Part shown: one piece after another, positions 18,840-48,877 of the stretch | Numbering within the stretch: position 1 is the stretch's first letter | Layout: each line of letters opens with the position of its first letter | Assembly: GCA_001824915.1 (NCBI GenBank) | Contig: MHTS01000027.1 | Coordinates: 1-53,359, forward strand | DNA: 53,359 nucleotides | Source of the DNA: Candidatus Wildermuthbacteria bacterium RIFCSPHIGHO2_01_FULL_48_27b | GTDB taxonomy: Bacteria > Patescibacteriota > Minisyncoccia > Minisyncoccales > UBA10102 | Direction of reading: 5' to 3' | Notes under the pieces: generated by a model | What the model was told of the DNA's origin: nothing | Seen by the model: the letters and a program-made list of their open reading frames with translations, nothing else | Database searches by the model: none | Program-made: the position numbers and the translations under genes

Positions 18840-20101
18840 ATCTTCAAAAGAGAAAGAAATATTGCCTCCTGGCGATACGGCCCAAGTACCACCAAGTTAA
18901 GCTTCTCTGGCACAAATAGATCTTGCGCTACTGCCTTAATATCTTCTGGCGTTACTTGATTTATCTTATCATACAACTGCTCTGGAGTTAACATAAAACC
19001 TTCCAAAAGTTCCTGCGCGCCGTAAAAGCTTGCTTTGGCGTTAGAAGACTCAAGCTCAAGCGCAAGTTTTCCTTTTTCATATTCTTTGGCTTTCGTCAGC
19101 TCCGTTTTCGATATACTTATGGTTTTGAGCTTTTTGTACTCCTTAAGGATAACTCTGATCGCCTGCTCCGCAGAGCCATTTTTCACGCCCGCCGTGGTTA
19201 CGAGATAACCGGTGTCGGGGTTGTTTTCGCTTGCCGTGGAAATATCGTACGCCAAACCAAGTTTTTCCCTCACCTCCACGAATAAACGGGAACTCATCAT
19301 TCCCCCTAAGGTTACGGCTGCCAGCAGCTGGGCAAAACGCCGAGGGTCAGAAAGATTATATGCCCGCACGCCAAGCGCAATGTTTGTTTGGTTTGTTTTC
19401 CGCCATTCTACCAAAAGCCCGGGAGATTGCTGCGCTTCTTTTACCGGAACCTTGGCCGTGCTCGCCCTGGTGCCAATGCGCGCAAACGCCTGCCGCGCTT
19501 TTTCAACTGCCGGTCTCTGTTTTATATTCCCTGCGATGCACACGAGGGTATTGGAAGCCGTATATTGGCGCTTCATATATTCCTGCGAGTCGCTCCGCGA
19601 AAATCCACGGATACTCTCCGGCCTGCCTACAATATCCCAGCCCGCGGGTTGGTCGCCGTACAAAAGCCGCATCCACAAATTATCAACGTGCCGGGCAGGA
19701 TTATCACGATACATATGCAGCTCCTCCATCACCACTCCTTTTTCTTTTTCTATCTCTTTGGCCGAAAGAGTTGAGCGCAGAAAAATGTCTGCCACCCACT
19801 CTAGCGCCAAATCAAAATGGCTGCTATCCACTTTGGCATAATAGCCGGTGTAATCCTCTCCGGTAAAAGCGTTGTACTGACCACCAACCTGATCGAGCGC
19901 TTCCGCAACCAACAGAGGGGCGGGGCGCTTTGTCGTACCCTTGAAAAACATGTGCTCCAAAAAGTGAGAGATACCGCTTTTGTCTTTCGTTTCGTATTTT
20001 GAGCCGGTTCCCACCAAGACTAAAACGGTCACCGTCTTGGTGCCCCGTTGCGGAATCGTGAGAACCCGTAATCCGCTTTTCAGCGTTGTCTTCTTAGGCA
20101 T
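18836..20101 (-). CDS. M16 family (pitrilysin-like) zinc peptidase
   Basis: HFLEHMFFKGT (HxxEH) motif. 421 aa. Confidence 0.85.
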   Translation of the reverse strand: MPKKTTLKSGLRVLTIPQRGTKTVTVLVLVGTGSKYETKDKSGISHFLEHMFFKGTTKRPAPLLVAEALDQVGGQYNAFTGEDYTGYYAKVDSSHFDLALEWVADIFLRSTLSAKEIEKEKGVVMEELHMYRDNPARHVDNLWMRLLYGDQPAGWDIVGRPESIRGFSRSDSQEYMKRQYTASNTLVCIAGNIKQRPAVEKARQAFARIGTRASTAKVPVKEAQQSPGLLVEWRKTNQTNIALGVRAYNLSDPRRFAQLLAAVTLGGMMSSRLFVEVREKLGLAYDISTASENNPDTGYLVTTAGVKNGSAEQAIRVILKEYKKLKTISISKTELTKAKEYEKGKLALELESSNAKASFYGAQELLEGFMLTPEQLYDKINQVTPEDIKAVAQDLFVPEKLNLVVLGPYRQEAIFLSLLKI

Positions 20102-21485
20102 TGAAGTCTATGCGTACTGTTTCTACTAACTCTTTAATCGATATTCGTTTTTGTCCCATGGTGTCGCGGTCGCGGAGAGTAACATCGTTATGTTCGAGCG
20201 AGTCGAAATCAACGGTAACGCAAAATGGCGTGCCGATTTCGTCTTGCCTGCGATAGCGCCGGCCAATGGCGCCAACCTCATCGTACTGGCAGGCAAAATG
20301 CGCCTTAAGCATGTTGTAAACTTCTTTTGCCTTTGCCACGACCTCCGGTTTGTTCTTCACAAGAGGAAACACCGCGACTTGCACCGGTGCCACCTTCTTT
20401 GAGAGCTTCAATACTACTTCCGATTCCTTTGCCGCCTCCGTGGTGGTGGTACGGGCTCCTTTTACCTCTTCATAAGCGTCTATGAGCAAAGCGAGCATGG
20501 CACGCTCGATTCCCATGGTGGGTTCAATTACATAAGGAAGGTATTTCTTGCCCGTTTCCTCGTCGCGGTAGGAAAGATCTCTGCCGGAAGCTTTCGCGTG
20601 TTGTTTCAAGTCAAAGTCAGTACGGTTCGCGATTCCCGCTAACTCTCCCCATCCGAACGGAAACTTATATTCAATATCTACCGTACGCTTGGAATAATGC
20701 GCCAAACTTTCTTTGGGGTGCTCATATCTGCGCAAATTCTCTTTCTTCAATCCCAAATCAATATAAAACTGCTCCCACGCGTTGAGCCAGAAGTCAAACC
20801 ACTTTTCATCTTCTCCGGGTTTGCAGAAAAATTCAATCTCCGCTATTTCAAACTCGCGCGATCGGAAGAAAAAGTTTCCTGTGGTAATTTCGTTGCGAAA
20901 TGATTTTCCCGCCTGAGCTATTCCAAAGGGCAGCTTCAGCCGCATGCTTTCTTGCACAAGCTTGAAATCCACAAACATTCCCTGCGCTGTTTCAGGCCGG
21001 AGATACGTAATGTGCGAATCGTCTTCCACCGGCCCAAGAAATGTCTTGAACATGAGGTTAAAATGCTTCGCCGGCGTGAAATCGCGGTCGCCGCATTCAG
21101 GACACTGATTTGGCTCTTTCGCCTCCCCCTGCCCCACAAAACGGCCGTCTACCATGTGGTCTGCGCGGAAACGACTATTGCATGATTTGCATTCAATCAG
21201 AGGATCAGTGAAATTTTCCACGTGGCCGGACGCCTTCCACACATTAGGATGCATTAAAATGGTGCTGTCGAGCGCAACCACGTTGTCCATCTTCTGAACA
21301 AAGCGGGAGAACCACTCTCGCTTGATATTTTGCTTCATCTGCGCACCCAAAGGCCCGAAATCCCACAAGGCCTCCACGCCTCCATATATCTCGCTTGAGG
21401 GAAACACAAACCCCCGCCTTTTCGCCAGCGACATGATTTTTTTCATTGTCTCATTCATGCGTCCTTTTAACCATATTTTAACCAA
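20094..21485 (-). CDS. glyQS: glycine--tRNA ligase (alpha2 type)
   Basis: RRGFVFPSSEIYGG, class II motifs and a C-terminal anticodon-binding domain. The true start is probably one of the internal Met codons (MNETMKKIMSL). Confidence 0.9.
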   Translation of the reverse strand: MVKIWLKGRMNETMKKIMSLAKRRGFVFPSSEIYGGVEALWDFGPLGAQMKQNIKREWFSRFVQKMDNVVALDSTILMHPNVWKASGHVENFTDPLIECKSCNSRFRADHMVDGRFVGQGEAKEPNQCPECGDRDFTPAKHFNLMFKTFLGPVEDDSHITYLRPETAQGMFVDFKLVQESMRLKLPFGIAQAGKSFRNEITTGNFFFRSREFEIAEIEFFCKPGEDEKWFDFWLNAWEQFYIDLGLKKENLRRYEHPKESLAHYSKRTVDIEYKFPFGWGELAGIANRTDFDLKQHAKASGRDLSYRDEETGKKYLPYVIEPTMGIERAMLALLIDAYEEVKGARTTTTEAAKESEVVLKLSKKVAPVQVAVFPLVKNKPEVVAKAKEVYNMLKAHFACQYDEVGAIGRRYRRQDEIGTPFCVTVDFDSLEHNDVTLRDRDTMGQKRISIKELVETVRIDFNA

Positions 21486-21487
21486 AA

Positions 21488-22132
21488 TTAAAAGAGCTGC
21501 GTAATATCTTTCATGCCGTTATCGAATTCCACAACGAAACCATCTAAAAACCCAAAGGGTGGCTTTCTCCAGTCGTGGCCTCGGACGATATTCTCAAAGC
21601 TATATGGCTTGCACTCATTTCTGAAAAAGTTTTCGTAGAGTTTCATAATAAAACCGTGGCTACAACATAGTACCGTTGTGTTTGGCTGGATTTTACGAAG
21701 AATAGACGCGAATTCGGTTGTTCGCTCTCTAATACTTTTTTGCTTCTCTTGAAGAGAATCATTCAGCAAAGCGCAAGAAAATTTATACCGTATTTTGTTT
21801 ATCTTCTTCGCGTCAAATCCATTATCCAGTAACTCCTGGGGAGTACTAAAGTCATCCATAGAAAATTTTATTTCGTTCAACTGCGGTGTTCTGGTAACAC
21901 TGTTTGAAAATAACTTGGCTGTTTCCCGCGAGCGGATAAACTCCGAACAAAAAACTTGCGTCGGTTTATACTTAGCTAAAAGTAAATTCACCCTCGTTTA
22001 CGTATCATCAGAGGACCTTAAGATGTGCGGCTGCATGGTTTGAAGTCCAATCGCATCAAGACTACGGTAAAGTGATTTACCATGCTGTTTATACTGGTAT
22101 TTAGCTGTACGAACGAAAATGATTTTTTTCAT
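21488..22132 (-). pseudogene. histidine phosphatase (PGAM)-family gene interrupted by one in-frame TAA (21998-22000); RHG motif degenerate (RTA)
   Basis: The two track ORFs (21998..22189 from MKKIIFVRTAKYQ, and 21488..21991) share one frame and are separated only by TAA plus 2 codons. Downstream motifs SRETA and CCSHG are retained. Confidence 0.5.
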
Positions 22133-23074: not shown

Positions 23075-23665
23075 TTACCTCCTTCCGTATTGGAACTGCA
23101 CCACCTCTTGGTTTTGTGGCGTAGATTCACACAGGATTTGCTTCCGCGTATCCACTTCCTTTTCTGTGAGTACTGCCCTGATGCCCTTGATGGATCCGGC
23201 GTGGGCCACGGCTATAGCAACGCATGACACAGGAACGAGTCGAGCAACTTGTGTGATACCCTCCTCAATCCGGGCAAGAAATGTTGCGGCCGACTCCAAT
23301 CCCATCTCCGGCGCTTCTATCCCCCAAAGCTGGTTTGGACTCCTTAGCTCCGGAAAGCGCTACTGAAGTTCAGAGAACCTCAAACCGGCGAATTGACCAC
23401 CGAGTCTTTCCCTAAGCTGGGGAACAGCCAGCGGCTTTCGCGAATATCCCAATAGCCACATCAGCAGCACAGCAGTCTCTATGCTCCTCTGCAGTCCGGT
23501 ATGTATGATAACCAACTCTTCTTTTCTGAACTTCCCAAGAGTTGCCATCATATTTCCTGCGAAGTGCTGGCCAGGAAGAATAGGAACGTCCCGGTCTCCC
23601 GAAGAAAACCTTTGTTCGCGGTTGTCTTGTGTTTCGAGATGCCGAATGGCTAGCAGTATTCCCAT
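23075..23665 (-). pseudogene. histidine phosphatase (PGAM)-family gene interrupted by a single in-frame TAG (23360-23362)
   Basis: The N-terminal ORF (MGILLAIRHLETQDN...LQRSIETA...RERLGGQFAGLRFSELQ) and C-terminal ORF (...GLESAATFLARIEEG...VAHAGSIKGIRAVL) are in the same frame. The 18 codons between them (RFPELRSPNQLWGIEAPE) are open and fit the family pattern. The combined length of ~196 aa is typical. Confidence 0.55.
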
Positions 23666-23905
23666 GGCACCTCCTTTCTTCGTAAAAGAACAACTCCAGC
23701 ACAGCTAATTTGTGCTGGTGGCTATATGTTTTGGAGAGAGAATAAACAAAATATCCAGTCATCAACACAAACAAAAACTCCTCCCGCAAAGCCCGAGAGG
23801 AGTCGTGATGACTGACCTGATAAATTTTAGGATAAACCCAAAATCGGACTTTGCGAACGGAGTTCCCAAGTCCACCACCAATTGAGGACGACAGTATTTA
23901 ATTGG

Positions 23906-26540: not shown

Positions 26541-27551
26541 TCATTCACCCTTGTGCAACAAATATGCTGTTGCAATCTTATTTTGAAGAATGCGTGCATT
26601 CCCGTGCGAAAGAAGTCCCATATAAGAATGATAAACTGGGGTTTTGGGATTCTCTTTGATTCTTCTGCTCATTCTGTTCTTCGTACTCGTCCGCAATACC
26701 CTATGATCTGAAAAGTGTATCCAGCCAAGAAAATCAACACCAGAGCATAAAGTACCGATAGAAAGCTTCTTGGGATGCAAGATAAGGTGCAGTTTTTCTT
26801 GCAGGAAACTGCGAATCTCTGGGATTTGCTCGGCAAGCCAGGCGCGATTATCACAGAACAGCACAAAATCATCTGCGTATCGGAGATAGTATTTTGCTTT
26901 CAGTTTGTGCTTTGCGAACTGGTCAATTTCATTCATATATATGTTGCAGAAAAGCTGCGACGTAAGATTGCCCAAAGGCAACCCAACGTCAGGCCCTGTT
27001 GCATAAAAACTTGAAACCACCCTACCTAAGAGCCAAAGAATCTTTTCGTCTGGGATATATTTCCTTAAAATCTCCGTGAGAATCTTATGATCAACGCTCG
27101 CAAAGAATTTTTGGATGTCGCCTTTCAGTACCCAGCAGGTTTTCGTGTTGTTCTTGCTTACAACGTAAGAAAACGAACGAAACCGATTCAGGGCTTTATG
27201 CGTACCCTTGCCATTCCTACAAGAAAAAGAATCTGCAATAAACGTTCTGTCGAAAAATGGATAAAGTTGGCGGTAGATTGCGTGGTGAAGCAGTCGGTCC
27301 CGAATAGTTGCTTTGTGAATGTCCCTCGGTTTGGGGTCGCAGATCCGAAACGCCTGATATTCACCGTGCTTGTATACGCCATTGGCAAGGTCTCTATGGA
27401 GAGATAGAATGTTATCCATAAGGCGCAAAGAAAACTCCTGAACATCGCGCTTATTCCTTTTCCCTCTCATAAACTCCCTCCACGCCTCTAAAAGGTTTTC
27501 TACACTAACAATATCTTCAAATGTATGGCTGAACTGAATGTTCATACTCAT
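26541..27551 (-). CDS. DGR reverse transcriptase
   Basis: LPLGNLTSQLFCNIYMNEID (the DGR-specific GxxxSQ motif) and YLRYADDFVLF (YxDD). The start is most likely MSMNIQFSH at 27551, preceded by a G9 tract. The track ORF extends to 27704. Confidence 0.85.
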   Translation of the reverse strand: MSMNIQFSHTFEDIVSVENLLEAWREFMRGKRNKRDVQEFSLRLMDNILSLHRDLANGVYKHGEYQAFRICDPKPRDIHKATIRDRLLHHAIYRQLYPFFDRTFIADSFSCRNGKGTHKALNRFRSFSYVVSKNNTKTCWVLKGDIQKFFASVDHKILTEILRKYIPDEKILWLLGRVVSSFYATGPDVGLPLGNLTSQLFCNIYMNEIDQFAKHKLKAKYYLRYADDFVLFCDNRAWLAEQIPEIRSFLQEKLHLILHPKKLSIGTLCSGVDFLGWIHFSDHRVLRTSTKNRMSRRIKENPKTPVYHSYMGLLSHGNARILQNKIATAYLLHKGE

Positions 27552-27921
27552 AACGCCCCCCCCCGGTAGAGTTCTGCCTGTATTGCAAAAACTGGTAGCG
27601 GCATACAAGCTCTGGCATGAGTACCTGCCGCATTTTCCCAAAACTTCGCGGTACACGCTGGGCGAAAAGATTGATTCTCTCTTTGTGGAAATTGTTGAAT
27701 ACATTGTTGTCGCAAGTTATCTTTCCAAACAAGACAAACTGCCTTATTTAAAAAAAGCAACACTCAAGATCGACGTATTGAAATTCTTTTTGCAAGTTTC
27801 TTGGGAAATAAAAGCATTAGACACCAAGAAATATATCACACTTTCTGCGCATTTAGATGAAATTGGGAGGATGCTCGGCGGCTGGAGAAAAGGGCTTGAA
27901 AATAAAACTCTCACTTCATAA
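27538..27921 (+). CDS. avd: Avd-like accessory variability determinant (four-helix-bundle / 23S rRNA IVS protein family)
   Basis: LPVLQKLVAAYKLWHEYLPHFPKTSRYTLGEKIDSLFVEIVEYIV...LDEIGRMLGGW. It lies on the strand opposite RT and TR. The exact start is uncertain (ATG 27538 or downstream TTG 27583). Confidence 0.75.
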   Translation: MFILITPPPGRVLPVLQKLVAAYKLWHEYLPHFPKTSRYTLGEKIDSLFVEIVEYIVVASYLSKQDKLPYLKKATLKIDVLKFFLQVSWEIKALDTKKYITLSAHLDEIGRMLGGWRKGLENKTLTS

Positions 27922-27941: not shown

Positions 27942-28049
27942 TTTCGGGAAAACACCCGATTCTCGTCGTTCCATCTGTTCGGATTCTCAACCGAGTTGGC
28001 GTTCACGTTCCAGCCGTTGCCGTTCCAGTTCACGTTCACCGCGCGGAGC
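27942..28049 (-). repeat. DGR template region (TR)
   Basis: On the minus strand it encodes LRAVNVNWNGNGWNVNANSVENPNRWNDENRVFSRN, rich in AAC/AAT codons. It is 91/108 identical to VR. Confidence 0.85.
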
Positions 28050-28300
28050 TCTCGTACCGAAAGCCATCTCTGCCACCATCCCTTGAATACTCTCAGGATT
28101 GTATCGAATTTGGGACCTCAAAGTCCGCCAGCCTTCGGCACCAATTCCTGTATTTTTTGAGAACGCTTATCATACTCTTGCAGAAGATATATCCGCTGCA
28201 ACTCTCACGAAAAGCATTCTGAATTCGTGTCGGGGGAGCCGTAACCACCCCATTCTTACGAATTTATCTTTATCGTATCAAAATTTGGTGAAAAGAAAAT

Positions 28301-28331
28301 CCCTCGAGTTGCAGCGACTGCAACTCGAGGG
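28301..28331 (-). terminator. 14-bp perfect hairpin downstream of VR (target-gene terminator and/or DGR target-recognition hairpin)
   Basis: CCCTCGAGTTGCAG-CGA-CTGCAACTCGAGGG. On the minus strand it is followed by ATTTTCTTTT. It lies 29 nt after the target stop codon. Confidence 0.65.
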
Positions 28332-28359
28332 AAGGTTCCAAGGATCTAGATCAAAGGAT

Positions 28360-29016
28360 CTAAGATCCAGAGCCCAAGGAATTACGGGAAAACACCCGAG
28401 ACCCGGCGCTCCATCTGAACGGATCCTCAACCGAGTCGGCGTCCACGTACCAGCCGTTGCCGCCCCAGTGCACGCGCACCGCGCGGAGCGTCCCCTCGAT
28501 GTCAAGGCAATAAAAGATGTTCGCCAACCCGTTGGTGAGCAGAAGACCCTGTTCCCCGTTTGGCTGCTGCGCGAGAAGAGCGTGGATCTGGCTGAGCGTG
28601 GTTTCGGCGCACTCGCCGAGTTCCTCGAGAATCGGGCCGTCCACAGAACTCTTCGTGAGCTTCGCTATGCGAAGCTCGGTCTTAGCCATCGGCTTCTCGG
28701 TCTTGCTGCCGAACCACCCCCTGAATAGACCGCTCACCCAGACGATCTTTGGAGTGTCGCCAACCGAGAACTTCTCCTCGGCTATGAACAGTTCGGTAAT
28801 CGCCGGCACCGTCACCGTGCCGACCGTCTCTAAGAGTGGCGGGTTCAGTTGCCTGAGGCCGAGGAGTCGCCGGAACTCGTCCCGGCTTACCTTCGCAATG
28901 TTTGCGTCGCGGAGGTCAGCCAAGAATCCAGACGCAAGAAGCGCCTGAACTTGCTCTCGAGACGTATCCTCGAAGAGCTCCAGAACCTTTCCTGCCTGCT
29001 TAAGGGTCGCGTCCAT
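28360..29016 (-). CDS. DGR target protein with C-terminal variable region
   Basis: 218 aa, GC-rich, AAGGAGG SD. The C-terminus ...LRAVRVHWGGNGWYVDADSVEDPFRWSAGSRVFSRN corresponds to VR. Confidence 0.85.
   Translation of the reverse strand: MDATLKQAGKVLELFEDTSREQVQALLASGFLADLRDANIAKVSRDEFRRLLGLRQLNPPLLETVGTVTVPAITELFIAEEKFSVGDTPKIVWVSGLFRGWFGSKTEKPMAKTELRIAKLTKSSVDGPILEELGECAETTLSQIHALLAQQPNGEQGLLLTNGLANIFYCLDIEGTLRAVRVHWGGNGWYVDADSVEDPFRWSAGSRVFSRNSLGSGS
28382..28489 (-). repeat. DGR variable region (VR)
   Basis: 17 differences from TR. Every one lies where TR has A on the sense (minus) strand, giving N to R/H/G/Y/D/F/S and similar changes. Confidence 0.85.
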
Positions 29017-29152: not shown

Positions 29153-29470
29153 TTATCGGAAACTCAAGCGGAATTGTTTGCCGGTTACTTCGGCGATGCG
29201 ATATAAAGTATCGATAGTAACGTTCTGTCTCCCGCTTTCGATGCGAGAGATAAACTCTCGTTTTACCGACATCTTTTTCGCAAGCTGCTCCTGGGAAAGA
29301 TGCATCTGCTTGCGCACTCTCCGAAGTTCCATTGCTGCCTTCAAGTACCGAACTCTCTCTTCAATTGCTTCGCGCTTCTTTTGAGAGTAGCCACGCCAAA
29401 TTTCCTCGCGTGGAATGAGGTCTCCTCTATCGATAGCCTGCTGTATTTTCTTTGGAAATCTTTTAGTCAT
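29153..29470 (-). CDS. XRE-family HTH antitoxin (HigA-like)
   Basis: LSQEQLAKKMSVKREFISRIESGRQNVTIDTLYRIAEVTG. 8-nt overlap with the upstream toxin gene. Confidence 0.8.
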   Translation of the reverse strand: MTKRFPKKIQQAIDRGDLIPREEIWRGYSQKKREAIEERVRYLKAAMELRRVRKQMHLSQEQLAKKMSVKREFISRIESGRQNVTIDTLYRIAEVTGKQFRLSFR

Positions 29471-29774
29471 ACTGTCTCGCTCGTTGTTGAGCTAATCTAA
29501 TATTTTTCAGTGAAGTTCTCTTAGTTTTCTTTTGGAAGAAATGGAGCAATGCAATAGAGTCTTTCATTACATACGCATAAAAACCTCGATATGCGCCCTC
29601 GTGAATAACCCGAATTTCAAAAAGATTTTTCGCTACTTTTCGTGCTTCCGGAAACTCAAGCTTCCCTTCTTCTGCCAAAACTTCGATATACGATTCAAAT
29701 TGCTCTTGGATTTCCTCTTTGAAACCGCGTAACTCCTTTGCCGCATTTTTGTCGTACAAAATCTCCTTACCCAT
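29463..29774 (-). CDS. RelE/ParE-superfamily toxin, Gp49/HigB-like
   Basis: LFEIRVIHEGAYRGFYAYVMKDSIALLHFFQKKTKRTSLKNIRLAQQR. The toxin-first gene order is typical of HigBA. Confidence 0.75.
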   Translation of the reverse strand: MGKEILYDKNAAKELRGFKEEIQEQFESYIEVLAEEGKLEFPEARKVAKNLFEIRVIHEGAYRGFYAYVMKDSIALLHFFQKKTKRTSLKNIRLAQQRARQYD

Positions 29775-29789
29775 AGTGTAACTTATAGG

Positions 29790-32700
29790 TTACTTCCTGT
29801 CAATAGCTATTCGCAACTTTCGAATACCGAGCCGAAGCGTTTTGCCTTCAGCAGAAAACTCCTGTTCAATATCGAACTCCTCTTTCGAGCTATCGCTCTC
29901 TTGCATCTCTTTTATGCCCACGGCAGGCATAATCATTTTTTGGTTATCGCGCAGGATTTTTTCCAGTTCCTCTGCGCCTTGGTAGCGCAAGTAAATCCTG
30001 TCCTGCGGCTTGTATCCCGCTTTCTTTCGCATTTCCTGGATATTGCGCAGGATCTCACGCAACAATCCTTCTTTTCGCAATTCGGGCGTAATTGTCGTAT
30101 CCAGTTCCACTTCTCCCTTCAGGTTTTTATCAAACACCACCTCCTTCACATTGAGCTCATCTGCCAAAAGATTTAAAAGATCTTTTGAAATTTTTAATTT
30201 CGAATTTTTAATTTTTAATGCTGCGAGAGGTTGGCGAACTTTGATGCCTGCTTTTGCGCGTTCTGCCAATCCCTTTACAACCAATTCCCGCACCTCTGCC
30301 ATTTCATCCTCAAGTTTCTTATCGAGGCCGGACTTGCCCCGCGTAGCTTTAGCGAAGTGGGGCCAATCTTCCCAGTGCACGCTTCTCCATCCTGAGCGCG
30401 TCGAAAGACCCTTACCCCCAACCTCGCCATATATATGTTCGCTCAAAAACGGAATAAAGGGCGCAGCCAGTTTGCTTGTTTCCAACAATACATATCCCAA
30501 AACGCCGCTTGCTTCCTGTAATTCTTTTTTGCTTGCTGGATTTTGTCTGGCTGCGCCAGATCCCGCGTAGCGGGAAAAGCGCTGTCGAGACCGCCGAATA
30601 TACCAGAGAGATAAGTCGTCAATCACAAAACTTTCAATTGCGCGCGCAGCTCCTGTAATGTCGTACCTATCGAAACTTTTTGTTGCATCTTTGATGGTCG
30701 AGTGCAGCCTGGAAATAATCCAGCTATCTAAGATATGTTCCGTTTTGAACTTTCTAGCCTTAGGGTTTGCTTGAGCATTGAGCCTTGGAGTTTGAGATTT
30801 TCTGTAGGTTTCGTAAAACACAAACGAATTCCACAGCGTCAAAATGAATTTGCGCATAGTTTGCTGCACATCTTTTTCTATGAACAGCTTGGGATCCCAT
30901 GGATGGTTTAACGTGAAAAAATACCAGCGTAAGGTATCCACACCGTACTTTTCAATCATATCCCATGGCCTAACCACATTCCCTTTGGATTTGGACATTT
31001 TCTCTCCTTTCTCATCTAAAATATGCCCAAGCGAAATGACATTCTTGTACGGCGCTTTCTGCCCAAGCAAAGTAGCAACTGCCAAAAGTGTGTAAAACCA
31101 CCCTCTTGTTTGATCAATGCCTTCCGTAATGTAATCTGCGGGGTATGGTTGAGGCGCCTTGATACGCCCTTGTTTATCCGCCGTAGCTTTGTCAGCCGCG
31201 GAGGCGAACGGCATAGATCCTGAATCAAACCATACATCCACCACGTCTTTTACGCGCTTCATTCGTCCTTTCTCACACTTCGCGCAGTCAAATTCGATCG
31301 CATCGATATATGGCCGGTGCAAATCGATTTCCATATCCTCGTTGTACGGAAAGCGGTGAAACGCAATGGAGCGCGCTTCTCCTGTTTCAATCGCTTTTTT
31401 CATACGAAACCGTATCGTTTCCTCCCGCGAATACCCTCGCATTAACCCTTCTAGCAAACTCAAAGGCAACTCATGGCTCACCAACAGAATCGTCTTGCCA
31501 GCATACTTTTCCTCCATATCTCCCATGAATTTATACACGCGCTTCTGCACATGGAGATACGTCTCCCCCTCGGGAGGGCCTTCTTGGAATCTTCTCAAAT
31601 AATGCTGAAGCGGTGTTTCGCCCTCTCTCCGAAAATACGCCCCAAACTCATCTACATGCTTCCCGTTAAATATACCCATGTCGCTCTCTCGGAGACCCTG
31701 ATCGTATTCCACCCTCAAACCAAGTTCGCCCGCCACAATTTCTGCCGTTTCTTTGGCACGCAGCAAATCAGAGGAAACAATCGTATCTATCTTTTTCTTT
31801 TTCAAAAGTTTGGCGAGTTTCTGAATCTGTTTCCTCCCTTTAGGCGTCAGCGGAGAAGGATTTTTTTCCGGCCAAGAGGCGCTTACATTTGTAAGCTGCC
31901 TCTGTGAATGCCCGTGCCGAAGAATATAATACGTATTGTTCGGCTTTTGCAGTTGCTCCAAGTCCCACGCAGAGCCAACCACTTCTCGATGGGCGCAGGT
32001 GCCGCACTCCCATACAGGCAAAGGAGTGCCCCAATAGCGCTCGCGGGAAAACGCCCAATCTTTTACCTCTGCTAACCATTCGCCCATTCTGCCGGTTTTA
32101 ATATGCGGCGGAACCCAGTTAATGCTCTTATTGCTGGCAATCAACTGCTTTTTCACCTTCTGCATGTTCACAAACCAGCTGTCTTTGGCGTAATACAGCA
32201 AAGGAGTGGAGCATCGCCAGCAAAACGGATATTCGTGCTCGTACAGTTCTTCTTTGTACAAAAGATTTCTTTTCTGGAGATCTTCAATAATCAAGGGTTC
32301 AACTTCCTTCACAAATACCCCTTTCCATTGTGGCACAAGCTCGTTGAATTTCCCTTCTTCGTCCACTGTGTGCTTTTTGGGCAACCCAAGTTTCGTACCC
32401 AACTGGTAGTCGTCTTCCCCATACATAACGGCTGTATGCACAATGCCGCTTCCCTCTTCGGTGGAAACAAAATCTGCAAGCGCGACGTAGTGCTTCTTCT
32501 CTGGTTGGTTTTTCAGAGAGTCAAAGAGTGGCTCATATTCCAAGCCTTCGAGTTCTTTCCCTAAAACTTCTTTCACGAGCTTATACTCACCCTCCAGATT
32601 TTTGAGAAGATTTTTCGCGATGATATATGTTTCTTCGCCTTGCTCAACAAAAGCGTAGCGGATCTTCTCTCCCACAGCGAGCGCCACGTTGCCGGGGAGC

Positions 32701-33401
32701 GTCCAGGGAGTTGTTGTCCAGGCAAGCAAAAAGGTTTTCTTTGGAGTTTGAGGTTTGGGATTTGCTTGAAACTTGAAACTTGAAACTTTAAACTTTACGA
32801 AAACGGAGTTTTCAGTAACGGTCTTGTACCCTTGCGCTAGCTCGTGCGAGGACTCTGGTGTTCCGCACCGCGGGCAATACGGCACCACTTTGTAATCCTT
32901 ATACAACAAACCCTTCCCCCAAAACTGCTTAATAATCCACCACAGGCCCTCCATATATTCTTTGTTGTAGGTAATGTATGGATTGTCGGTATCAAGCCAA
33001 AAGCCGATGCGCTGCGTTAAATCATCCCATTCCTTTTTGTACTCCCAAACCGATTGCTTGCATGCTTTATTGAATTTCGCAATGCCGTATTGCTCAATTT
33101 CTTTCTTGGAGCTAAGCCCGAGCTTTTTTTCAATTTGCAGTTCTACGGGAAGCCCATGCGTATCCCAACCAGCCTTTCTTCCCACATAAAATCCGCGCAT
33201 TGTTTTGTAGCGACATATAACATCCTTAAACGCGCGGGAAAGCACATGATGAATACCCGGACTCCCGTTCGCCGTTGGGGGCCCTTCATAAAACACAAAG
33301 CGCTTCCCCTTTTGGCGCTTTTGCAACGATTTCTCAAACGCTTTTTGCTCTTTCCAGCGCTTGAGTATTTGCTCTTCCAATCTCGGAAAATCCGCTTCCA
33401 T
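29790..33401 (-). CDS. ileS: isoleucine--tRNA ligase with an inserted histidine-phosphatase (PGAM-like) domain
   Basis: PTANGSPGIHHVLSRA (HIGH), KMSKSKGN, CP1 editing region and Zn-binding CxxC pairs. About 200 extra aa (residues ~487-690) lie between WECGTCAHREVVGS and EIDLHRPYID and carry the RHG, SSDLLRAKETA and LLVSHE motifs. Confidence 0.92.
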   Translation of the reverse strand: MEADFPRLEEQILKRWKEQKAFEKSLQKRQKGKRFVFYEGPPTANGSPGIHHVLSRAFKDVICRYKTMRGFYVGRKAGWDTHGLPVELQIEKKLGLSSKKEIEQYGIAKFNKACKQSVWEYKKEWDDLTQRIGFWLDTDNPYITYNKEYMEGLWWIIKQFWGKGLLYKDYKVVPYCPRCGTPESSHELAQGYKTVTENSVFVKFKVSSFKFQANPKPQTPKKTFLLAWTTTPWTLPGNVALAVGEKIRYAFVEQGEETYIIAKNLLKNLEGEYKLVKEVLGKELEGLEYEPLFDSLKNQPEKKHYVALADFVSTEEGSGIVHTAVMYGEDDYQLGTKLGLPKKHTVDEEGKFNELVPQWKGVFVKEVEPLIIEDLQKRNLLYKEELYEHEYPFCWRCSTPLLYYAKDSWFVNMQKVKKQLIASNKSINWVPPHIKTGRMGEWLAEVKDWAFSRERYWGTPLPVWECGTCAHREVVGSAWDLEQLQKPNNTYYILRHGHSQRQLTNVSASWPEKNPSPLTPKGRKQIQKLAKLLKKKKIDTIVSSDLLRAKETAEIVAGELGLRVEYDQGLRESDMGIFNGKHVDEFGAYFRREGETPLQHYLRRFQEGPPEGETYLHVQKRVYKFMGDMEEKYAGKTILLVSHELPLSLLEGLMRGYSREETIRFRMKKAIETGEARSIAFHRFPYNEDMEIDLHRPYIDAIEFDCAKCEKGRMKRVKDVVDVWFDSGSMPFASAADKATADKQGRIKAPQPYPADYITEGIDQTRGWFYTLLAVATLLGQKAPYKNVISLGHILDEKGEKMSKSKGNVVRPWDMIEKYGVDTLRWYFFTLNHPWDPKLFIEKDVQQTMRKFILTLWNSFVFYETYRKSQTPRLNAQANPKARKFKTEHILDSWIISRLHSTIKDATKSFDRYDITGAARAIESFVIDDLSLWYIRRSRQRFSRYAGSGAARQNPASKKELQEASGVLGYVLLETSKLAAPFIPFLSEHIYGEVGGKGLSTRSGWRSVHWEDWPHFAKATRGKSGLDKKLEDEMAEVRELVVKGLAERAKAGIKVRQPLAALKIKNSKLKISKDLLNLLADELNVKEVVFDKNLKGEVELDTTITPELRKEGLLREILRNIQEMRKKAGYKPQDRIYLRYQGAEELEKILRDNQKMIMPAVGIKEMQESDSSKEEFDIEQEFSAEGKTLRLGIRKLRIAIDRK

Positions 33402-33508: not shown

Positions 33509-34081
33509 TTATAGCCCAAAGTATTCCTTAACCACTTTCTCGTTTGCGATCCTTTCGGCAATAATGAGACAAATTTCGTCCTCGGTAAGACCGAAAAATT
33601 CTTTCAAAAGTTTAATCTCACCATCGCATTTGTAAGGATGTATCCATACGCTTTTTTGGTAAAGGCAAAAACCCAACTCCTTTAGTTTCCCGCGCAAAGC
33701 CTCTCTCTTGATGCCTTTCGAGTTTTCGATATCAAACAATACAATCCTCCATTTCCCATCCCAGCGTTTTGGCTTATGGATTTCTAGAGAATTAATTTGA
33801 AATCTTCCCGCCTTCTTTTTGCCTTCCTCGGTAAGCGAAATATAAATCTGGCGATTGCGTTTCGTAATTTGAATATATCCCTGCCGACGTAACCTGAAAA
33901 AAGTATCATATACTTTCTTTCTCTCGTGATGTTTACGCTTTTGAAATTCTCTCACAAGGTTGGTGCCAAAATAGGGAGAAGTAGCCGCAATCGCGATCAA
34001 CCCTCCTACCATAATCCAGCCTAGAATATCTTTGGTAATTTCAGATTTAGGTTTCTTCAAATAATATTTGGACTTACTCAT
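33509..34081 (-). CDS. PaaX-like transcriptional regulator with N-terminal membrane segment
   Basis: C-terminus KRWDGKWRIVLFDIENSKGIKREALRGKLKELGFCLYQKSVWIHPY (PaaX C-terminal/Cas2-like fold), a central wHTH-like segment, and a hydrophobic segment ILGWIMVGGLIAIAATSPYF. Confidence 0.65.
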   Translation of the reverse strand: MSKSKYYLKKPKSEITKDILGWIMVGGLIAIAATSPYFGTNLVREFQKRKHHERKKVYDTFFRLRRQGYIQITKRNRQIYISLTEEGKKKAGRFQINSLEIHKPKRWDGKWRIVLFDIENSKGIKREALRGKLKELGFCLYQKSVWIHPYKCDGEIKLLKEFFGLTEDEICLIIAERIANEKVVKEYFGL

Positions 34082-34092
34082 AAGCTTATGCT

Positions 34093-34126
34093 ACTACGAA
34101 ATATTGCATATGCAATATTTCGTAGT
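34093..34126. promoter_or_regulatory. perfect 34-nt palindrome overlapping the promoter of the PaaX-like gene (candidate operator)
   Basis: ACTACGAAATATTGCAT|ATGCAATATTTCGTAGT, ending 12 nt before the ATG. It overlaps a TTGCAT-16-TAGCAT promoter-like pair. Confidence 0.55.
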
Positions 34127-34191
34127 TATTGTTTCAAAGATACAGCCCACGTGAATCAAATAGCGTGAATCAAATAACACGTAAATCAAAC

Positions 34192-34223
34192 AAAAAGCGC
34201 TCGGAGCATCACACTCCGAGCGC
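34192..34223 (-). terminator. rho-independent terminator after the 167-aa gene
   Basis: Minus strand: GCGCTCGGAG-TGTGATG-CTCCGAGCGC followed by TTTTTG. Confidence 0.75.
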
Positions 34224-34304
34224 ATCAAATGAACAACTTCCAGATACTATGTCCCGAGCGACACCGCATTGCGGCGCGCGTTTCAAAGAACCTACATATC
34301 CTTC

Positions 34305-34796
34305 TTACTTATCCAAGACCCGCTCCTTTGGAATCACCCTCTGGATATTCCAAAGCTCCCATGAGTGGACCGCACCAGCCAACATGACTTTCGCATACTC
34401 CCTTGCCCCGCCCTCGCTTGTAAAGAAAAGCGGGTGGAGGCCCAGGCGAGGAGACACAGCAATTGGCCCCGTAGCTATGATAATCCAATTCCTCTTGGGC
34501 TGATGCGAGAGAATTCGCAACATCAAGAAAAGCCGCAACGCAATCTCTTCATCATCAACAGAAGTTCCTTCATACTCCTTCCACCGAGCAGATACTCGAG
34601 CAGCCGATGGCTCCGAATCCACTGCTACAAATCGGTCCCCATACTCATCCCAGAGCTTTGTTGCAGACAATCGCGCACAATCCGCGCATGTCATTCCATT
34701 CTTGAACACCGTGAACTGCAGTCCTGCGTGAAGAAAGGACATCTCACAAGGCTTCCCTGCCCTCCCAACCTTGCACCTTCCGCATGTTATAGTCAT
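34305..34796 (-). CDS. GC-rich hypothetical protein with N-terminal Cys-rich (zinc-ribbon-like) segment
   Basis: ATG 34796 is preceded by GGAGGGCAGG. The protein starts MTITCGRCKVGRAGKPCE...CADCARL. Its own TTGACT-16-TATAAG promoter lies directly after the argS stop. Confidence 0.55.
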   Translation of the reverse strand: MTITCGRCKVGRAGKPCEMSFLHAGLQFTVFKNGMTCADCARLSATKLWDEYGDRFVAVDSEPSAARVSARWKEYEGTSVDDEEIALRLFLMLRILSHQPKRNWIIIATGPIAVSPRLGLHPLFFTSEGGAREYAKVMLAGAVHSWELWNIQRVIPKERVLDK

Positions 34797-34862
34797 CCTG
34801 CCCTCCACAAACAGATTTCCTACTCGTAACCCATCTTATAATTTATCCTGCGCGAAAGTCAA

Positions 34863-42817: not shown

Positions 42818-44050
42818 TTATACGCTCCTTGTAAACCGGTCCAGCCTCGGAGCAAAGAGGCGCGGAAGCTCTGCCTCTTGCCCCACAATCATCTGCGCGA
42901 GAGCATGAGCCGCCCCGGGAATTCCGGGCAGACCATGCCCGCCGAATCCGCAGATTACCCACTGGTTTCCAATCAGCGGAACGCGCCCGACAAATGGGAA
43001 TCCGTCGGGCGACTCCCACATGATCCCTGTCCATTCGTGAGAGTGGGATAGACTCTCGGGGATGCCAAACATTTGCTGGGCGTATGCTTGCAACGCCATA
43101 CTGATGGCGCTGTTCACCACGGTATCGTCTTCCTCACCTTCTTCGCGGGAAGGAGAGACCGATCGCATGCCGCCCAACAGCAGTTCTTGGCACCTTCGAA
43201 GGCCATAGACAAGGCCGTCGAAAGTACCAAAACCGATCTCTTGAGCAACCTGTTCTGGAAAAGCCACAATCTGCCCACGGATACATAAGAACCCCACCCT
43301 TAGAGCAGTGGCAGCTCCTCCCAGCAGATGTGGCCTGTTTGTGGCATGCACCACGATCTGTGCCCTCACCCTCCCCTTGCCGGTTCGGACCACGAAACCG
43401 CCGTTCTGCGGGACCACGTCATACGCATTGGTCCTCACGCGAACTTGGACGCCCAAATCTTGGGCTGCTCGCGCGAGCCCCAGCAGAAGACGCACTGGAT
43501 TCACCTGCCCGGCCTCGGGTTTGAACAACCCACCCGCAAAGCCCGAGAAGCCGAGCACTTCACATTGACGGGCATCCCACAGCTCCGGGGGGTGCCCGAT
43601 TGAAACAAGTAAGGCTTGGCGTTCCCTCAACAGACGAATCTGCTCGTCATCTGCCGCAAGGAACATGTATCCAGTTCGGCGGAAACCGCACTGGATGTTG
43701 AACCTTTCGATCACCTCTTCGAGTAGCCCCACAGAAGCATACTCGAAATCCAGAAGGGTTTTAGCCATATCTTGGCCATGTCGACGAAATATATCCTCAA
43801 TGGGTATGTTCCCTGGATTCACGTGGCCTTGGTTGCGGCCGCTCGCTCCTTCTCCAAGACCTCCCTTCTCGAGCAACATGACGTTCGTGGTGCCGAGCTC
43901 AGCGAGAAAAAGAGCCGTCATCACACCTGCCAGTCCTCCCCCCAGAACCGCAACTTGAGTTTCGGCGCCATCGATATTGTCCGAGGGAAAATCATCCCTT
44001 CGCAGTCTCCACCAAATCGGGATTTGCTGAGGAACTCCCTGGATAACCAT
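42818..44050 (-). CDS. FAD-dependent oxidoreductase (DAO/glycine-oxidase-like family), GC-rich
   Basis: VAVLGGGLAGVMTALFLAELG dinucleotide-binding motif. AGGAGGGAGAA SD before ATG 44050. A TTGATT-17-TATAAA promoter lies about 100 nt upstream. Confidence 0.85.
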   Translation of the reverse strand: MVIQGVPQQIPIWWRLRRDDFPSDNIDGAETQVAVLGGGLAGVMTALFLAELGTTNVMLLEKGGLGEGASGRNQGHVNPGNIPIEDIFRRHGQDMAKTLLDFEYASVGLLEEVIERFNIQCGFRRTGYMFLAADDEQIRLLRERQALLVSIGHPPELWDARQCEVLGFSGFAGGLFKPEAGQVNPVRLLLGLARAAQDLGVQVRVRTNAYDVVPQNGGFVVRTGKGRVRAQIVVHATNRPHLLGGAATALRVGFLCIRGQIVAFPEQVAQEIGFGTFDGLVYGLRRCQELLLGGMRSVSPSREEGEEDDTVVNSAISMALQAYAQQMFGIPESLSHSHEWTGIMWESPDGFPFVGRVPLIGNQWVICGFGGHGLPGIPGAAHALAQMIVGQEAELPRLFAPRLDRFTRSV

Positions 44051-48836: not shown

Positions 48837-48839
48837 TAA

Positions 48840-48870: not shown

Positions 48871-48877
48871 CCCGTTT

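What the first reader, a model, noticed from the sequence alone, without database searches (positions are those of the whole stretch)
31332..31943. Complete histidine-phosphatase (PGAM-like) domain inserted in the catalytic core of IleRS
Between the conserved WECGTCAHREVVGS zinc-knuckle segment and EIDLHRPYIDAIEF..WFDSGSMPFA, the 1203-aa IleRS carries about 200 extra residues.

These carry all hallmark histidine-phosphatase motifs: YYILRHGHS (RHG), SSDLLRAKETA, ESDMG, PPEGETY and LLVSHELP.

The reading frame is continuous and the flanking synthetase motifs (HIGH, KMSKS) are intact, so this is a domain insertion and not a gene fusion artefact. I do not know of an aminoacyl-tRNA synthetase with an embedded phosphatase domain. 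It could hydrolyse a phosphorylated nucleotide or tRNA end, or a mis-activated intermediate. Two further histidine-phosphatase genes occur in the same window.
Basis: partly seen in the sequence, partly recalled or inferred. Interest (0 to 1): 0.72.

Follow-up and report, generated by a model that had tools for sequence, protein, structure and literature searches.

The report
Phosphatase domain nested inside isoleucyl-tRNA synthetase
The isoleucyl-tRNA synthetase of this Parcubacteria-type bacterium carries a complete, apparently active histidine-phosphatase enzyme nested in one of its surface loops, and hundreds of related species have either the same arrangement or the same phosphatase as a separate gene directly in front of the synthetase gene, a pairing I could not find described in the literature and whose purpose is unknown.

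Summary
ORF 29790..33401 (-) encodes a 1203-aa type-2 IleRS, and residues 487-690 (window 31332..31943) form a full branch-1 histidine-phosphatase domain (Pfam His_Phos_1, E=5e-36). It replaces a 10-25-residue linker between the two Cys pairs of the zinc knuckle in the peripheral CP3 subdomain.

It is not an artefact. The identical protein occurs on 8 contigs, 93 of the 120 closest IleRS clusters carry the insert, and at least 140 representatives at 50% identity do too. Catalytic residues R495, H496, R548 and H643 are invariant in 119 of 119 clusters. dN/dS for the insert (0.085) equals that of the catalytic core.

The key new finding is that the same phosphatase subfamily is otherwise a free-standing gene directly upstream of an insert-less ileS. 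All 80 species-representative loci examined link it to ileS (62 embedded, 18 separate). The two layouts interchanged at least 5 times, and some lineages lost the phosphatase.

The substrate is unknown. The nearest structures are small-metabolite phosphatases, and no characterised family threshold is met.

I found no prior description. It is a new variant of a known kind and moderately to highly interesting.

The parts
29790..33401 (-). ileS: 1203-aa type-2 isoleucyl-tRNA synthetase with a nested phosphatase domain
   Evidence: ORF; TIGR00392 861.6 bits against cutoff 621.4; best PDB matches are T. thermophilus IleRS and P. megaterium IleRS2; syntenic argS-ileS-recO position shared with insert-less orthologues
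31332..31943 (-). Inserted histidine-phosphatase domain plus linkers (residues 487-690)
   Evidence: Pfam His_Phos_1 E=5e-36; absent from P0227 and T. thermophilus IleRS at exactly this point; AF2 pLDDT 92-98 in context and 94.9 alone; dN/dS 0.085
31395..31928 (-). Pfam His_Phos_1 match proper (residues 492-669)
   Evidence: coordinates checked
31911..31919 (-). RHG motif: R495, nucleophile H496, G497
   Evidence: R and H in 119/119 insert-bearing clusters, G in 116/119; invariant also in free-standing homologues; coordinates
31758..31760 (-). R548, second phosphate-pocket arginine (SSDLLRAKETA motif)
   Evidence: 119/119; aligns with the corresponding motif of PhoE 1H2E/1EBB
31686..31688 (-). 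E572, putative general acid (LRE motif)
   Evidence: 105 Glu and 14 Asp among 119 clusters
31473..31475 (-). H643, second catalytic histidine (VSHE motif)
   Evidence: 119/119
31995..32006 (-). First Cys pair of the CP3 zinc knuckle (C466-G-T-C469), just N-terminal of the insert
   Evidence: Invariant in alignment A1; aligns with the C461/C464 region of T. thermophilus IleRS; CP3 zinc motif described in PMC7191050
31275..31286 (-). Second Cys pair of the CP3 zinc knuckle (C706-A-K-C709), just C-terminal of the insert
   Evidence: Invariant in alignment A1; coordinates
33246..33257 (-). Class I signature motif in its swapped form G-I-H-H (GXHH)
   Evidence: GXHH described in IleRS2 by PMC10485003
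30987..31001 (-). KMSKS loop motif, canonical
   Evidence: K801, M802, S803 and K804 invariant
32700..32720 (-). Editing-domain (CP1) threonine-rich peptide WTTTPWT, intact
   Evidence: invariant in A1

Best explanation
SHOWN: This is the housekeeping type-2 IleRS of a Parcubacteria (Wildermuthbacteria-like) bacterium. A complete branch-1 histidine-phosphatase domain is nested in the zinc-knuckle loop of its peripheral CP3 subdomain. All synthetase and editing motifs are retained. The phosphatase belongs to a distinct Patescibacteria-specific subfamily that is always physically linked to ileS, either embedded at this one site or as a translationally coupled gene directly upstream of an insert-less ileS.

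INFERRED: The domain is an active phosphomonoesterase that works through a phospho-His496 intermediate. R495 and R548 hold the phosphate, E572 acts as the acid, and H643 assists. It forms a fixed two-enzyme unit with IleRS, in cis when embedded and probably as a complex when separate. Its fold and helical cap resemble small-metabolite phosphatases, and CP3 lies off the known tRNA path. I therefore think it most likely hydrolyses a small soluble phosphomonoester, with a nucleotide- or ribose-phosphate-like compound as my first guess. It would do this beside the aminoacylation site, not inside it. The link to IleRS would then give stoichiometric co-expression and co-localisation, with no change to the aminoacylation chemistry. 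It is accessory: several lineages lost it and kept a normal IleRS.
For: Identity and site.

Not an artefact, and widespread: identical protein on 8 contigs; 119/120 clusters with an insert-bearing query and 93/120 with an unbiased insert-less query; about 140 of the best 150 representatives at 50% identity span flank, insert and flank in one stretch, and 219 score E<=1e-30; at least 513 relatives among GTDB species representatives.

Active enzyme: R495, H496, R548 and H643 in 119/119, E572 as E or D in 119/119; dN/dS 0.085, against 0.086 for the catalytic core and 0.21 for the editing domain.

Linkage to ileS: the free-standing closest homologues lie 1-70 nt upstream of insert-less ileS; 80/80 species-representative loci are linked (62 embedded, 15 adjacent, 3 one gene away); embedded and free-standing forms share subfamily motifs; more distant homologues are not near ileS.

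Linkage kept through rearrangement: 5 embedded/split transitions in 100/100 bootstraps, and incongruent phosphatase and IleRS nearest neighbours.

Rigid docking: AF2 pTM 0.88 with pLDDT 92-98 through both linkers.

Small-metabolite type: the top PDB neighbours are GpgP, CobC, the novel-type phosphoserine phosphatase, PhoE and the riboflavin-pathway HFP, at TM about 0.75, with no SixA, Sts or PGAM5 in the top 50.

Dispensable: P0227, P0404, P0417 and P0393 have neither the insert nor a neighbouring phosphatase, and no remnant.
Against: - No substrate is identified. Every characterised His_Phos equivalog model falls far below its cutoff, so 'nucleotide-like' is a guess.
- The tools return no coordinates or PAE, so I could not check where the phosphatase pocket points relative to the synthetic site, the editing site or the tRNA.
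- Gene order in this region is conserved in general, and a split arising by local duplication and loss would leave the genes adjacent without any selection. Adjacency alone therefore does not prove functional coupling.
- Repeated loss shows that IleRS does not need the domain.
- The trees are neighbour-joining on 188-746 columns, not maximum likelihood.
- A physical complex in the split state is inferred only from translational coupling.
Confidence: 0.45

Rival explanations
1. Hitch-hiker. The phosphatase is an ordinary metabolic housekeeping enzyme with no functional relation to IleRS. Its gene happened to sit in the argS-ileS operon of the Parcubacteria ancestor and became nested in a tolerant surface loop by neutral rearrangement in streamlined genomes. 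The linkage reflects inheritance and the mechanism of rearrangement, not selection.
For: Synteny of the whole block (NUDIX, L20, IF3, SmpB, argS, ileS, recO) is conserved irrespective of the phosphatase. CP3 is peripheral and variable in topology among IleRSs. The domain was lost several times without affecting IleRS. The structural neighbours are metabolic phosphatases.
Against: 80/80 loci keep the linkage over deep divergence. At least 5 independent layout changes all preserved adjacency, and some phosphatase/IleRS pairs have incongruent histories, for example L054. Start/stop spacing of 1 nt or overlapping is typical of coupled partners. AF2 models a rigid, confident docking. Related phosphatases outside the subfamily are not near ileS.
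Confidence: 0.28
2. Macromolecular substrate in the aminoacylation cycle. The tethered phosphatase either cleans the tRNA(Ile) acceptor end or dephosphorylates the synthetase itself. In the first case it would remove a terminal 2'/3'-phosphate, or a pyrophosphate added by toxSAS-type toxins. In the second it would counter HipA-like kinases that target class I aaRS. It would act as a 'substrate-repair' module analogous to the editing domain.
For: The phosphatase is exclusively and persistently linked to an aaRS, and sits between two aaRS genes (argS and ileS) in the split form. The helical cap carries a ~10-residue indel across the family, which suggests no tight small-molecule pocket. Some superfamily members (SixA, Sts-1, PGAM5) do act on proteins (established knowledge). 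The top NCBIfam match is the acid-phosphatase half of a bifunctional RNase H enzyme.
Against: The nearest structural neighbours are small-metabolite phosphatases, with no protein phosphatases of the family in the top 50. SixA scores 32-37 bits against a cutoff of 74.5. CP3 is not described as contacting tRNA, whose acceptor end is handled by the editing domain, CP core and catalytic domain. No histidine phosphatase acting on RNA termini is known to me. Nothing explains why only IleRS would need this.
Confidence: 0.15
3. Non-catalytic module. The domain keeps the fold but serves only as a structural, tRNA-binding or regulatory ligand-sensing element.
For: The position next to the nucleophile (H498) is variable (H, E, D or Y). 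Some histidine-phosphatase-fold domains in other proteins are catalytically weak (established knowledge).
Against: All four core catalytic residues are invariant in 119/119 clusters and in the free-standing homologues. dN/dS is as low as in the synthetase core. A purely structural role would not preserve the whole catalytic set.
Confidence: 0.05
4. Artefact or selfish element: a chimeric assembly, an intein, or a recently inserted mobile element.
For: None beyond the unusual architecture. The window does carry strain-specific inserted segments elsewhere.
Against: The identical protein is found in 8 independent contigs from different samples, and hundreds of divergent orthologues have the same junctions. 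There are no flanking direct or inverted repeats. Pfam finds no Hint, intein or endonuclease domain, and the junction residues are not intein-like. Selection is purifying.
Confidence: 0.01

Closest known systems
Type-2 IleRS (IleRS2) with the GXHH signature motif, e.g. the P. megaterium IleRS2 GXHH mutant (8C8W); T. thermophilus IleRS (1ILE)
   Same: The synthetase body is the same: 810 bits to both by sequence, TM 0.71-0.86, type-2 C-terminal domain (DUF5915), CP3 zinc knuckle as in T. thermophilus, and the GXHH motif described for hyper-mupirocin-resistant IleRS2.
   Different: None of the solved or described IleRSs has a domain in CP3. Here about 200 residues replace a 10-25-residue linker. 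Neither IleRS survey paper I searched mentions a phosphatase, CPR or Patescibacteria.
Small branch-1 histidine phosphatases: PhoE (1H2E/1EBB), CobC alpha-ribazole phosphatase (6E4B, 6NRU), GpgP Rv2419c (4PZ9), novel-type phosphoserine phosphatase (4IJ5), riboflavin-pathway HFP (9MMH)
   Same: Same fold and catalytic set (RHG His, two Arg, Glu, second His), a similar size of about 190-210 residues, and a helical cap.
   Different: Only 20-28% identical. Every equivalog model falls well below its cutoff (CobC 83-88 against 163; dPGM_arch 74-77 against 225; PspA 67-71 against 350). The subfamily has its own motifs (CWPEK, PLTxKG, TGExRxL) and is always linked to ileS.
Bifunctional RNase H / acid phosphatase (NCBIfam NF005567, PRK07238; RnhC / Rv2228c type)
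   Same: It is the best NCBIfam match of the insert (93-96 bits). It is a precedent for a histidine-phosphatase domain joined to an enzyme that handles nucleic acids.
   Different: That is an end-to-end fusion, not a nested insertion. The partner is RNase H, not an aaRS, and the score is far below the family cutoff of 326.
NCBIfam NF040702 'isoleucine--tRNA ligase, N-acetyltransferase domain-containing' (ileS_w_GNAT)
   Same: An IleRS carrying an extra enzymatic domain that is recognised as its own family, which shows that IleRS tolerates such additions.
   Different: The accessory enzyme is different (GNAT, not a phosphatase). The window protein scores 317 against a cutoff of 1999, so it is not a member. 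I did not determine where the GNAT domain sits.
CP1 editing domain of class Ia synthetases
   Same: A hydrolytic domain nested in the connective polypeptide of the Rossmann fold. This is the architectural analogy.
   Different: CP1 is universal in IleRS, ValRS and LeuRS, hydrolyses mis-acylated tRNA, and sits on the acceptor-end path. This domain is lineage-specific and dispensable, has phosphatase chemistry, and sits in CP3.

Membership tests
Isoleucyl-tRNA synthetase (TIGR00392 ileS) | Whole-protein score above the curated equivalog cutoff | tested here: met
   861.6 bits against cutoff 621.4
Isoleucyl-tRNA synthetase (TIGR00392 ileS) | Class I signature motifs (HXGH or its GXHH variant, and KMSKS) and the CP1 editing motifs | tested here: met
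   GIHH at 33246..33257, KMSKS at 30987..31001, WTTTPWT at 32700..32720; conserved family-wide
Type-2 IleRS (IleRS2) | Closer to T. thermophilus / P. megaterium IleRS2 than to IleRS1, with a type-2 C-terminal domain | tested here: met
   810 bits to 1ILE and 8C8W against 309-345 bits to IleRS1 (1FFY, 8C9F); DUF5915 C-terminal domain
Acquired mupirocin-resistance IleRS MupA / MupB (NF000257, NF000258) | Score above the exception-model cutoff | tested here: not met
   807 and 785 bits against cutoff 1900
ileS_w_GNAT (NF040702) | Score above cutoff; GNAT domain present | tested here: not met
   317 bits against cutoff 1999; no acetyltransferase domain found by Pfam
Histidine phosphatase superfamily, branch 1 (Pfam PF00300) | Profile match above the gathering threshold | tested here: met
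   124.6 bits against 21.7, E=5e-36, profile positions 2-173 of 194
Histidine phosphatase superfamily, branch 1 (Pfam PF00300) | Catalytic core: RHG nucleophile His, two Arg, acid Glu/Asp, second His | tested here: met
   R495, H496, R548 and H643 in 119/119; E572 as E or D in 119/119
Histidine phosphatase superfamily, branch 1 (Pfam PF00300) | Fold | tested here: met
   AF2 pLDDT 94.9; Foldseek TM about 0.75, probability 1.00 to GpgP, CobC, PhoE and dPGM
Histidine phosphatase superfamily, branch 1 (Pfam PF00300) | Phosphatase or mutase activity | not testable with these tools
   Requires an enzyme assay
Cofactor-dependent phosphoglycerate mutase (TIGR01258, NF038349) | Score above cutoff | tested here: not met
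   27.9 against 81.7; 73.6-76.7 against 225
Alpha-ribazole phosphatase CobC (TIGR03162, NF011580) | Score above cutoff | tested here: not met
   82.9-87.9 against 162.9; 65-70 against 250
Phosphohistidine phosphatase SixA (TIGR00249) | Score above cutoff | tested here: not met
   32.2-37.3 against 74.5, and only the N-terminal ~70 residues match
Phosphoserine phosphatase PspA type (NF045917) | Score above cutoff | tested here: not met
   66.8-71.2 against 350
Bifunctional RNase H / acid phosphatase (NF005567) | Score above cutoff; RNase H domain present | tested here: not met
   93-96 bits against 326; no RNase H domain
Intein or other mobile protein insertion | Hint or homing-endonuclease domain, Cys/Ser/Thr at both splice junctions with a terminal His-Asn, flanking repeats | tested here: not met
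   No such Pfam hit; the junctions read ...QKPNNTYY... and ...PYNEDMEIDLHRP...; no repeats

The most novel reading that the evidence does not exclude
The phosphatase is a second 'quality-control' catalytic centre of the synthetase. It would act on the macromolecular substrates of aminoacylation. One possibility is that it removes a blocking terminal phosphate or pyrophosphate from the tRNA(Ile) CCA end, such as those left by nucleases or installed by toxSAS-type toxins. The other is that it reverses inhibitory phosphorylation of the synthetase by toxin kinases. This would be a substrate-repair or anti-toxin module embedded in an aaRS, conceptually parallel to the editing domain and new for the histidine-phosphatase superfamily.
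Probability: 0.12. Interest if true: 0.9.

Novelty: new variant of a known kind. Interest (0 to 1): 0.62.

Why it matters
Aminoacyl-tRNA synthetases are among the best-studied enzymes, and their accessory domains (editing, tRNA-binding, signalling) have each revealed new biology. Here a second, chemically unrelated enzyme with an intact catalytic set is nested in a class I synthetase. It has been kept for a long evolutionary time in a large part of the Parcubacteria. The same pair also exists as two adjacent genes, which is a natural 'Rosetta stone' pointing to a functional or physical partnership.

If the partnership is real, it identifies an unknown step associated with isoleucyl-tRNA synthesis in these reduced, host-dependent bacteria, or an unknown need of theirs. 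It would also give a defined function to a family of uncharacterised phosphatases. The natural series of embedded, split and absent forms provides ready-made controls for experiments.

The proteins are currently annotated only as 'class I tRNA ligase family protein' or 'isoleucine--tRNA ligase'. The family also shows that the CP3 zinc-knuckle loop of IleRS tolerates a 200-residue enzyme, which is useful for engineering.

Tried and rejected
1. The first homology search used the insert plus 20-residue flanks. It returned only free-standing ~190-aa proteins, and not even the window's own protein. That briefly suggested a unique architecture, but it was a limitation of the word index. The full-length search and the exhaustive search showed the opposite.

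2. The 119/120 figure is biased, because insert-bearing hits gain score against an insert-bearing query. I repeated the search with the insert-less orthologue and got 93/120.

3. phmmer with the insert found no other His_Phos ORF in the window. A broader profile and Pfam then found two degenerate ones. My first translation of one of them was in the wrong frame (corrected).

4. My second tree script had a bug that reported zero state changes. This was fixed.

5. Artefact, intein or mobile element: rejected.

6. Membership of any characterised phosphatase family (dPGM, CobC, SixA, PspA, RnhC): rejected on the curated cutoffs.

7. Orientation of the phosphatase pocket relative to the synthetic and editing sites: not obtainable, because the structure tools return no coordinates or PAE. 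The whole-model fold search only recovers IleRS structures.

8. Intervening genes in the three 'near' loci and the contexts of more distant homologues gave no clue to function.

9. Eight literature searches, plus text searches inside the two broad IleRS evolution papers, found no description of this architecture. The library does not hold most subscription-journal papers.
Full report
OBSERVATION

The window contains a 1203-codon ORF on the minus strand at 29790..33401. It is an isoleucyl-tRNA synthetase by the curated equivalog model (TIGR00392, 861.6 bits against a cutoff of 621.4). Pfam splits the class I catalytic-domain match into two stretches around a strong His_Phos_1 match at residues 492-669 (124.6 bits against a gathering cutoff of 21.7, E=5e-36).

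WHERE EXACTLY THE DOMAIN SITS

Against T. thermophilus IleRS, the query aligns up to residue 482 and resumes at 692, while the T. thermophilus chain runs 477 to 488. About 200 residues therefore replace a linker of about 10. Against a syntenic orthologue that lacks the insert (P0227), and three further insert-less relatives, the replaced linker is 20-25 residues.

The insert lies between two Cys pairs, C466/C469 and C706/C709, which are invariant in the family. These form the zinc knuckle of the CP3 subdomain. CP3 is a peripheral connective peptide that joins CP2 to the second half of the Rossmann fold. It binds zinc in T. thermophilus IleRS, and its topology differs between IleRSs (PMC7191050). 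'Inserted in the catalytic core' is thus true of the linear sequence only. Structurally it is a nested insertion in a variable surface element.

The synthetase is otherwise complete. KMSKS and the editing-domain threonine-rich peptide are intact. The 'HIGH' motif reads G-I-H-H, the swapped GXHH form that was shown to give IleRS2 hyper-resistance to mupirocin (PMC10485003). This form is conserved across the whole family.

NOT AN ARTEFACT, AND NOT RARE

- The identical protein is called on 8 contigs from different samples.
- With the full-length query, 119 of the 120 best 90%-identity clusters carry both PF00133 and PF00300.
- That count is biased towards insert-bearing hits, so I repeated the search with the insert-less orthologue. 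93 of 120 carry the insert and 27 do not.
- An exhaustive HMMER scan of 1.84 billion 50%-identity representatives used the insert plus conserved flanks. It gave 219 hits at E<=1e-30, and about 140 of the best 150 cover flank, insert and flank in one stretch.
- Named taxa include Wildermuth-, Yanofsky-, Nealson-, Taylor-, Jorgensen-, Colwell-, Kaiser-, Lipton-, Staskawicz-, Magasanik- and Doudnabacteria, as well as Paceibacterota and Minisyncoccia.
- There are no repeats flanking the insert and no intein or endonuclease signature.

THE DOMAIN LOOKS CATALYTICALLY ALIVE

Among 119 insert-bearing clusters that are 52-100% identical overall, R495, H496, R548 and H643 are each present in 119 of 119. 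E572 is Glu in 105 and Asp in 14, and G497 is present in 116.

Between the window and its closest relative with DNA (L092), dN/dS is 0.085 for the insert. The second half of the catalytic core gives 0.086, the editing domain 0.21, and the whole gene 0.147.

AF2 models the domain with pLDDT 92-98 in context (whole-model pLDDT 90.5, pTM 0.88) and 94.9 alone. The high pTM and the confident linkers suggest a fixed docking on the synthetase body. I could not inspect coordinates or PAE.

THE KEY NEW FACT: THE SAME PHOSPHATASE ALSO EXISTS AS THE GENE IN FRONT OF ileS

The closest relatives of the insert outside IleRS are free-standing proteins of about 190 aa, 41-53% identical. I looked up the genomic context of three of them. 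All three lie directly upstream of an insert-less ileS (934-970 aa), with gaps of 1, 70 and 1 nt. They sit in the same syntenic block as the window: NUDIX, L20, IF3, SmpB, argS, phosphatase, ileS, recO.

Embedded and free-standing forms share distinctive motifs: CWPEK, PLTxKG, SSDLLRTKQTAEI, RLRExNxGIFNGK, IVSHExPLxLLE and TGExRxL.

Among the 80 best species-representative loci:
- the phosphatase is embedded in ileS at the same site in 62 (61 complete loci plus L071, which is cut off at its 5' end);
- it is immediately upstream on the same strand in 15;
- it is one gene (1.3-1.9 kb) upstream in 3.
That makes 80 of 80 linked.

Homologues beyond the subfamily boundary are not near ileS. That boundary shows as a sharp score drop from E=2e-28 to 4e-14.

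A third state also exists. P0227, P0404, P0417 and P0393 have neither the insert nor a neighbouring phosphatase, and tblastn finds no remnant.

HISTORY

A neighbour-joining tree of the IleRS core, with the insert removed and T. thermophilus as outgroup, needs 5 embedded/split transitions in 100 of 100 bootstrap replicates. The root state is embedded in 78 of them. P0227 (no phosphatase) is sister to the window protein in 100 of 100.

The phosphatase-domain tree needs 5-10 transitions. It also disagrees with the IleRS tree for some pairs. For example, L054 has an IleRS nearest to embedded-type enzymes but a phosphatase nearest to L080's free-standing copy.

I infer that the embedded form is old, that layouts have switched repeatedly, and that the phosphatase has been lost several times. 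These are distance trees on limited columns, so the direction and exact number of events remain provisional.

WHAT KIND OF PHOSPHATASE

By sequence, the best solved relatives are PhoE and CobC. By predicted structure, the top 50 PDB neighbours are small-metabolite enzymes with a helical cap: GpgP Rv2419c, a related mycobacterial hydrolase, CobC, the novel-type phosphoserine phosphatase, the riboflavin-pathway HFP, PhoE, and dPGM/BPGM, at TM about 0.75. The protein phosphatases of the superfamily do not appear there.

Every characterised equivalog model is far below its cutoff: CobC 83-88 against 163, archaeal dPGM 74-77 against 225, PspA 67-71 against 350, SixA 32-37 against 74.5, and RNase H/acid phosphatase 93-96 against 326. 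The domain is therefore a member of the superfamily, but of no characterised family.

HOW IT MOST LIKELY WORKS

Shown:
- a complete IleRS2;
- a complete histidine-phosphatase catalytic set under strong constraint;
- obligate physical linkage of this subfamily to ileS;
- dispensability in some lineages.

Inferred: the domain is an active phosphomonoesterase using a phospho-His496 intermediate, which is the established mechanism of the superfamily. It forms a fixed unit with IleRS, in cis or as a complex. Its fold class points to small soluble substrates. CP3 is not among the elements reported to handle the acceptor end in the IleRS-tRNA complex, which are the editing domain, CP core and catalytic domain. 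My best guess is therefore that it hydrolyses a small phosphomonoester beside the synthetase, possibly a nucleotide- or ribose-phosphate-like compound. The benefit of the linkage would be stoichiometric co-expression and co-localisation. I put this at about 0.45.

The main rival, at about 0.28, is that the phosphatase is functionally unrelated and merely inherited in the operon. General synteny, repeated loss and a tolerant loop favour this rival. The 80/80 linkage, its preservation through at least 5 rearrangements, translational coupling and the confident docking argue against it.

A macromolecular role, either repair of the tRNA(Ile) end or reversal of synthetase phosphorylation, is the most exciting reading. 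It has little positive support (about 0.15).

COMPARISON WITH WHAT IS KNOWN, AND NOVELTY

The body is a GXHH-type IleRS2, and the insert is a PhoE/CobC-like small histidine phosphatase. There are three precedents:
- the RNase H/acid phosphatase fusion, where a histidine phosphatase is joined to a nucleic-acid enzyme;
- NCBIfam's GNAT-bearing IleRS, an IleRS with an extra enzyme;
- the CP1 editing domain, a hydrolytic domain nested in the connective polypeptide.

None of these combines a phosphatase with an aaRS. Eight literature searches and text searches of the two broad IleRS evolution papers found no mention. The proteins are in public databases, named only 'class I tRNA ligase family protein' or 'isoleucine--tRNA ligase'. 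I rate it a new variant of a known kind (an aaRS with an accessory domain) and give it an interest score of 0.62. The architecture is solid, widespread and unexpected, and it comes with natural split and absent controls. The function remains open.

THE OTHER TWO His_Phos ORFs

The ORF at 23078..23671 (-) has intact motifs but an in-frame TAG at 23360..23362. The ORF at 21488..22132 (-) has its catalytic His replaced by Thr and an in-frame TAA at 21998..22000. It ends 2 nt before glyS. They are not close to the IleRS-linked subfamily. In the closest relative, and in P0227's genome, the 555-aa gene runs directly into glyS, so these ORFs lie in a strain-specific segment and appear to be decaying. 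They do not bear on the IleRS feature.

Noticed in passing
window 23078..23671 (-): His_Phos_1-like ORF with intact RH, R, E and H motifs but one in-frame TAG at 23360..23362. It belongs to a different subfamily from the IleRS insert and lies in a segment absent from the closest relative. It is probably a pseudogene; a sequencing error or read-through was not excluded.
   Followed up: partly
window 21488..22132 (-): A second degenerate His_Phos_1-like ORF. Its catalytic His is replaced by Thr (FVRTAKY) and it has an in-frame TAA at 21998..22000. It ends 2 nt before the GlyRS gene at 20094..21485. It is absent from relatives, where the 555-aa gene abuts glyS.
   Followed up: partly
window 33246..33257 (-): The class I 'HIGH' signature of this IleRS is the swapped GXHH form (GIHH). 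It is conserved across the whole insert-bearing family. PMC10485003 links this motif to mupirocin hyper-resistance in IleRS2.
   Followed up: partly
window 32232..32804 (-), residues 200-390 of IleRS: Divergence within ileS is mosaic between the window and its closest relative L092. The editing domain is only 61% identical (dS 1.69), whereas residues 487-900 are about 93% identical (dS 0.45). This suggests recombination within the gene or accelerated change of the editing domain.
   Followed up: no
window 26541..27921: Elements resembling a diversity-generating retroelement: a reverse transcriptase (RVT_1, 26541..27704 -) and a bAvd-family ORF (27538..27921 +), as called on an identical contig. 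They are absent from the closest relative's locus, where ileS is followed directly by recO. The GC-rich 218-aa ORF at 28360..29016 has no Pfam hit.
   Followed up: no
window 29153..29774 (-): A Gp49-family / HTH (Xre-type) pair, apparently a toxin-antitoxin module, lies immediately downstream of ileS. It is absent from the closest relative.
   Followed up: no
window 33509..34808 (-): Two ORFs lie between argS and ileS that the closest relative lacks: a 190-aa PaaX_M (Cas2-like) / winged-helix protein, and a 167-aa ORF with no family hit. A homologue of the PaaX_M-like protein sits between the free-standing phosphatase and ileS in L049.
   Followed up: no
window 6001..7000, 28001..29000, 43001..44000 and 48001..49000: Local GC spikes (0.64, 0.555, 0.565 and 0.55) against a background of about 0.45. 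The 6-7 kb region has several long overlapping ORFs on both strands.
   Followed up: no
L030 / L007 and L054 / L080 (species-representative and metagenome loci): Free-standing phosphatases from lineages whose IleRSs fall in different clades are each other's nearest neighbours (distance 0.26-0.29). This hints at horizontal exchange of the free-standing gene or of part of the operon.
   Followed up: partly
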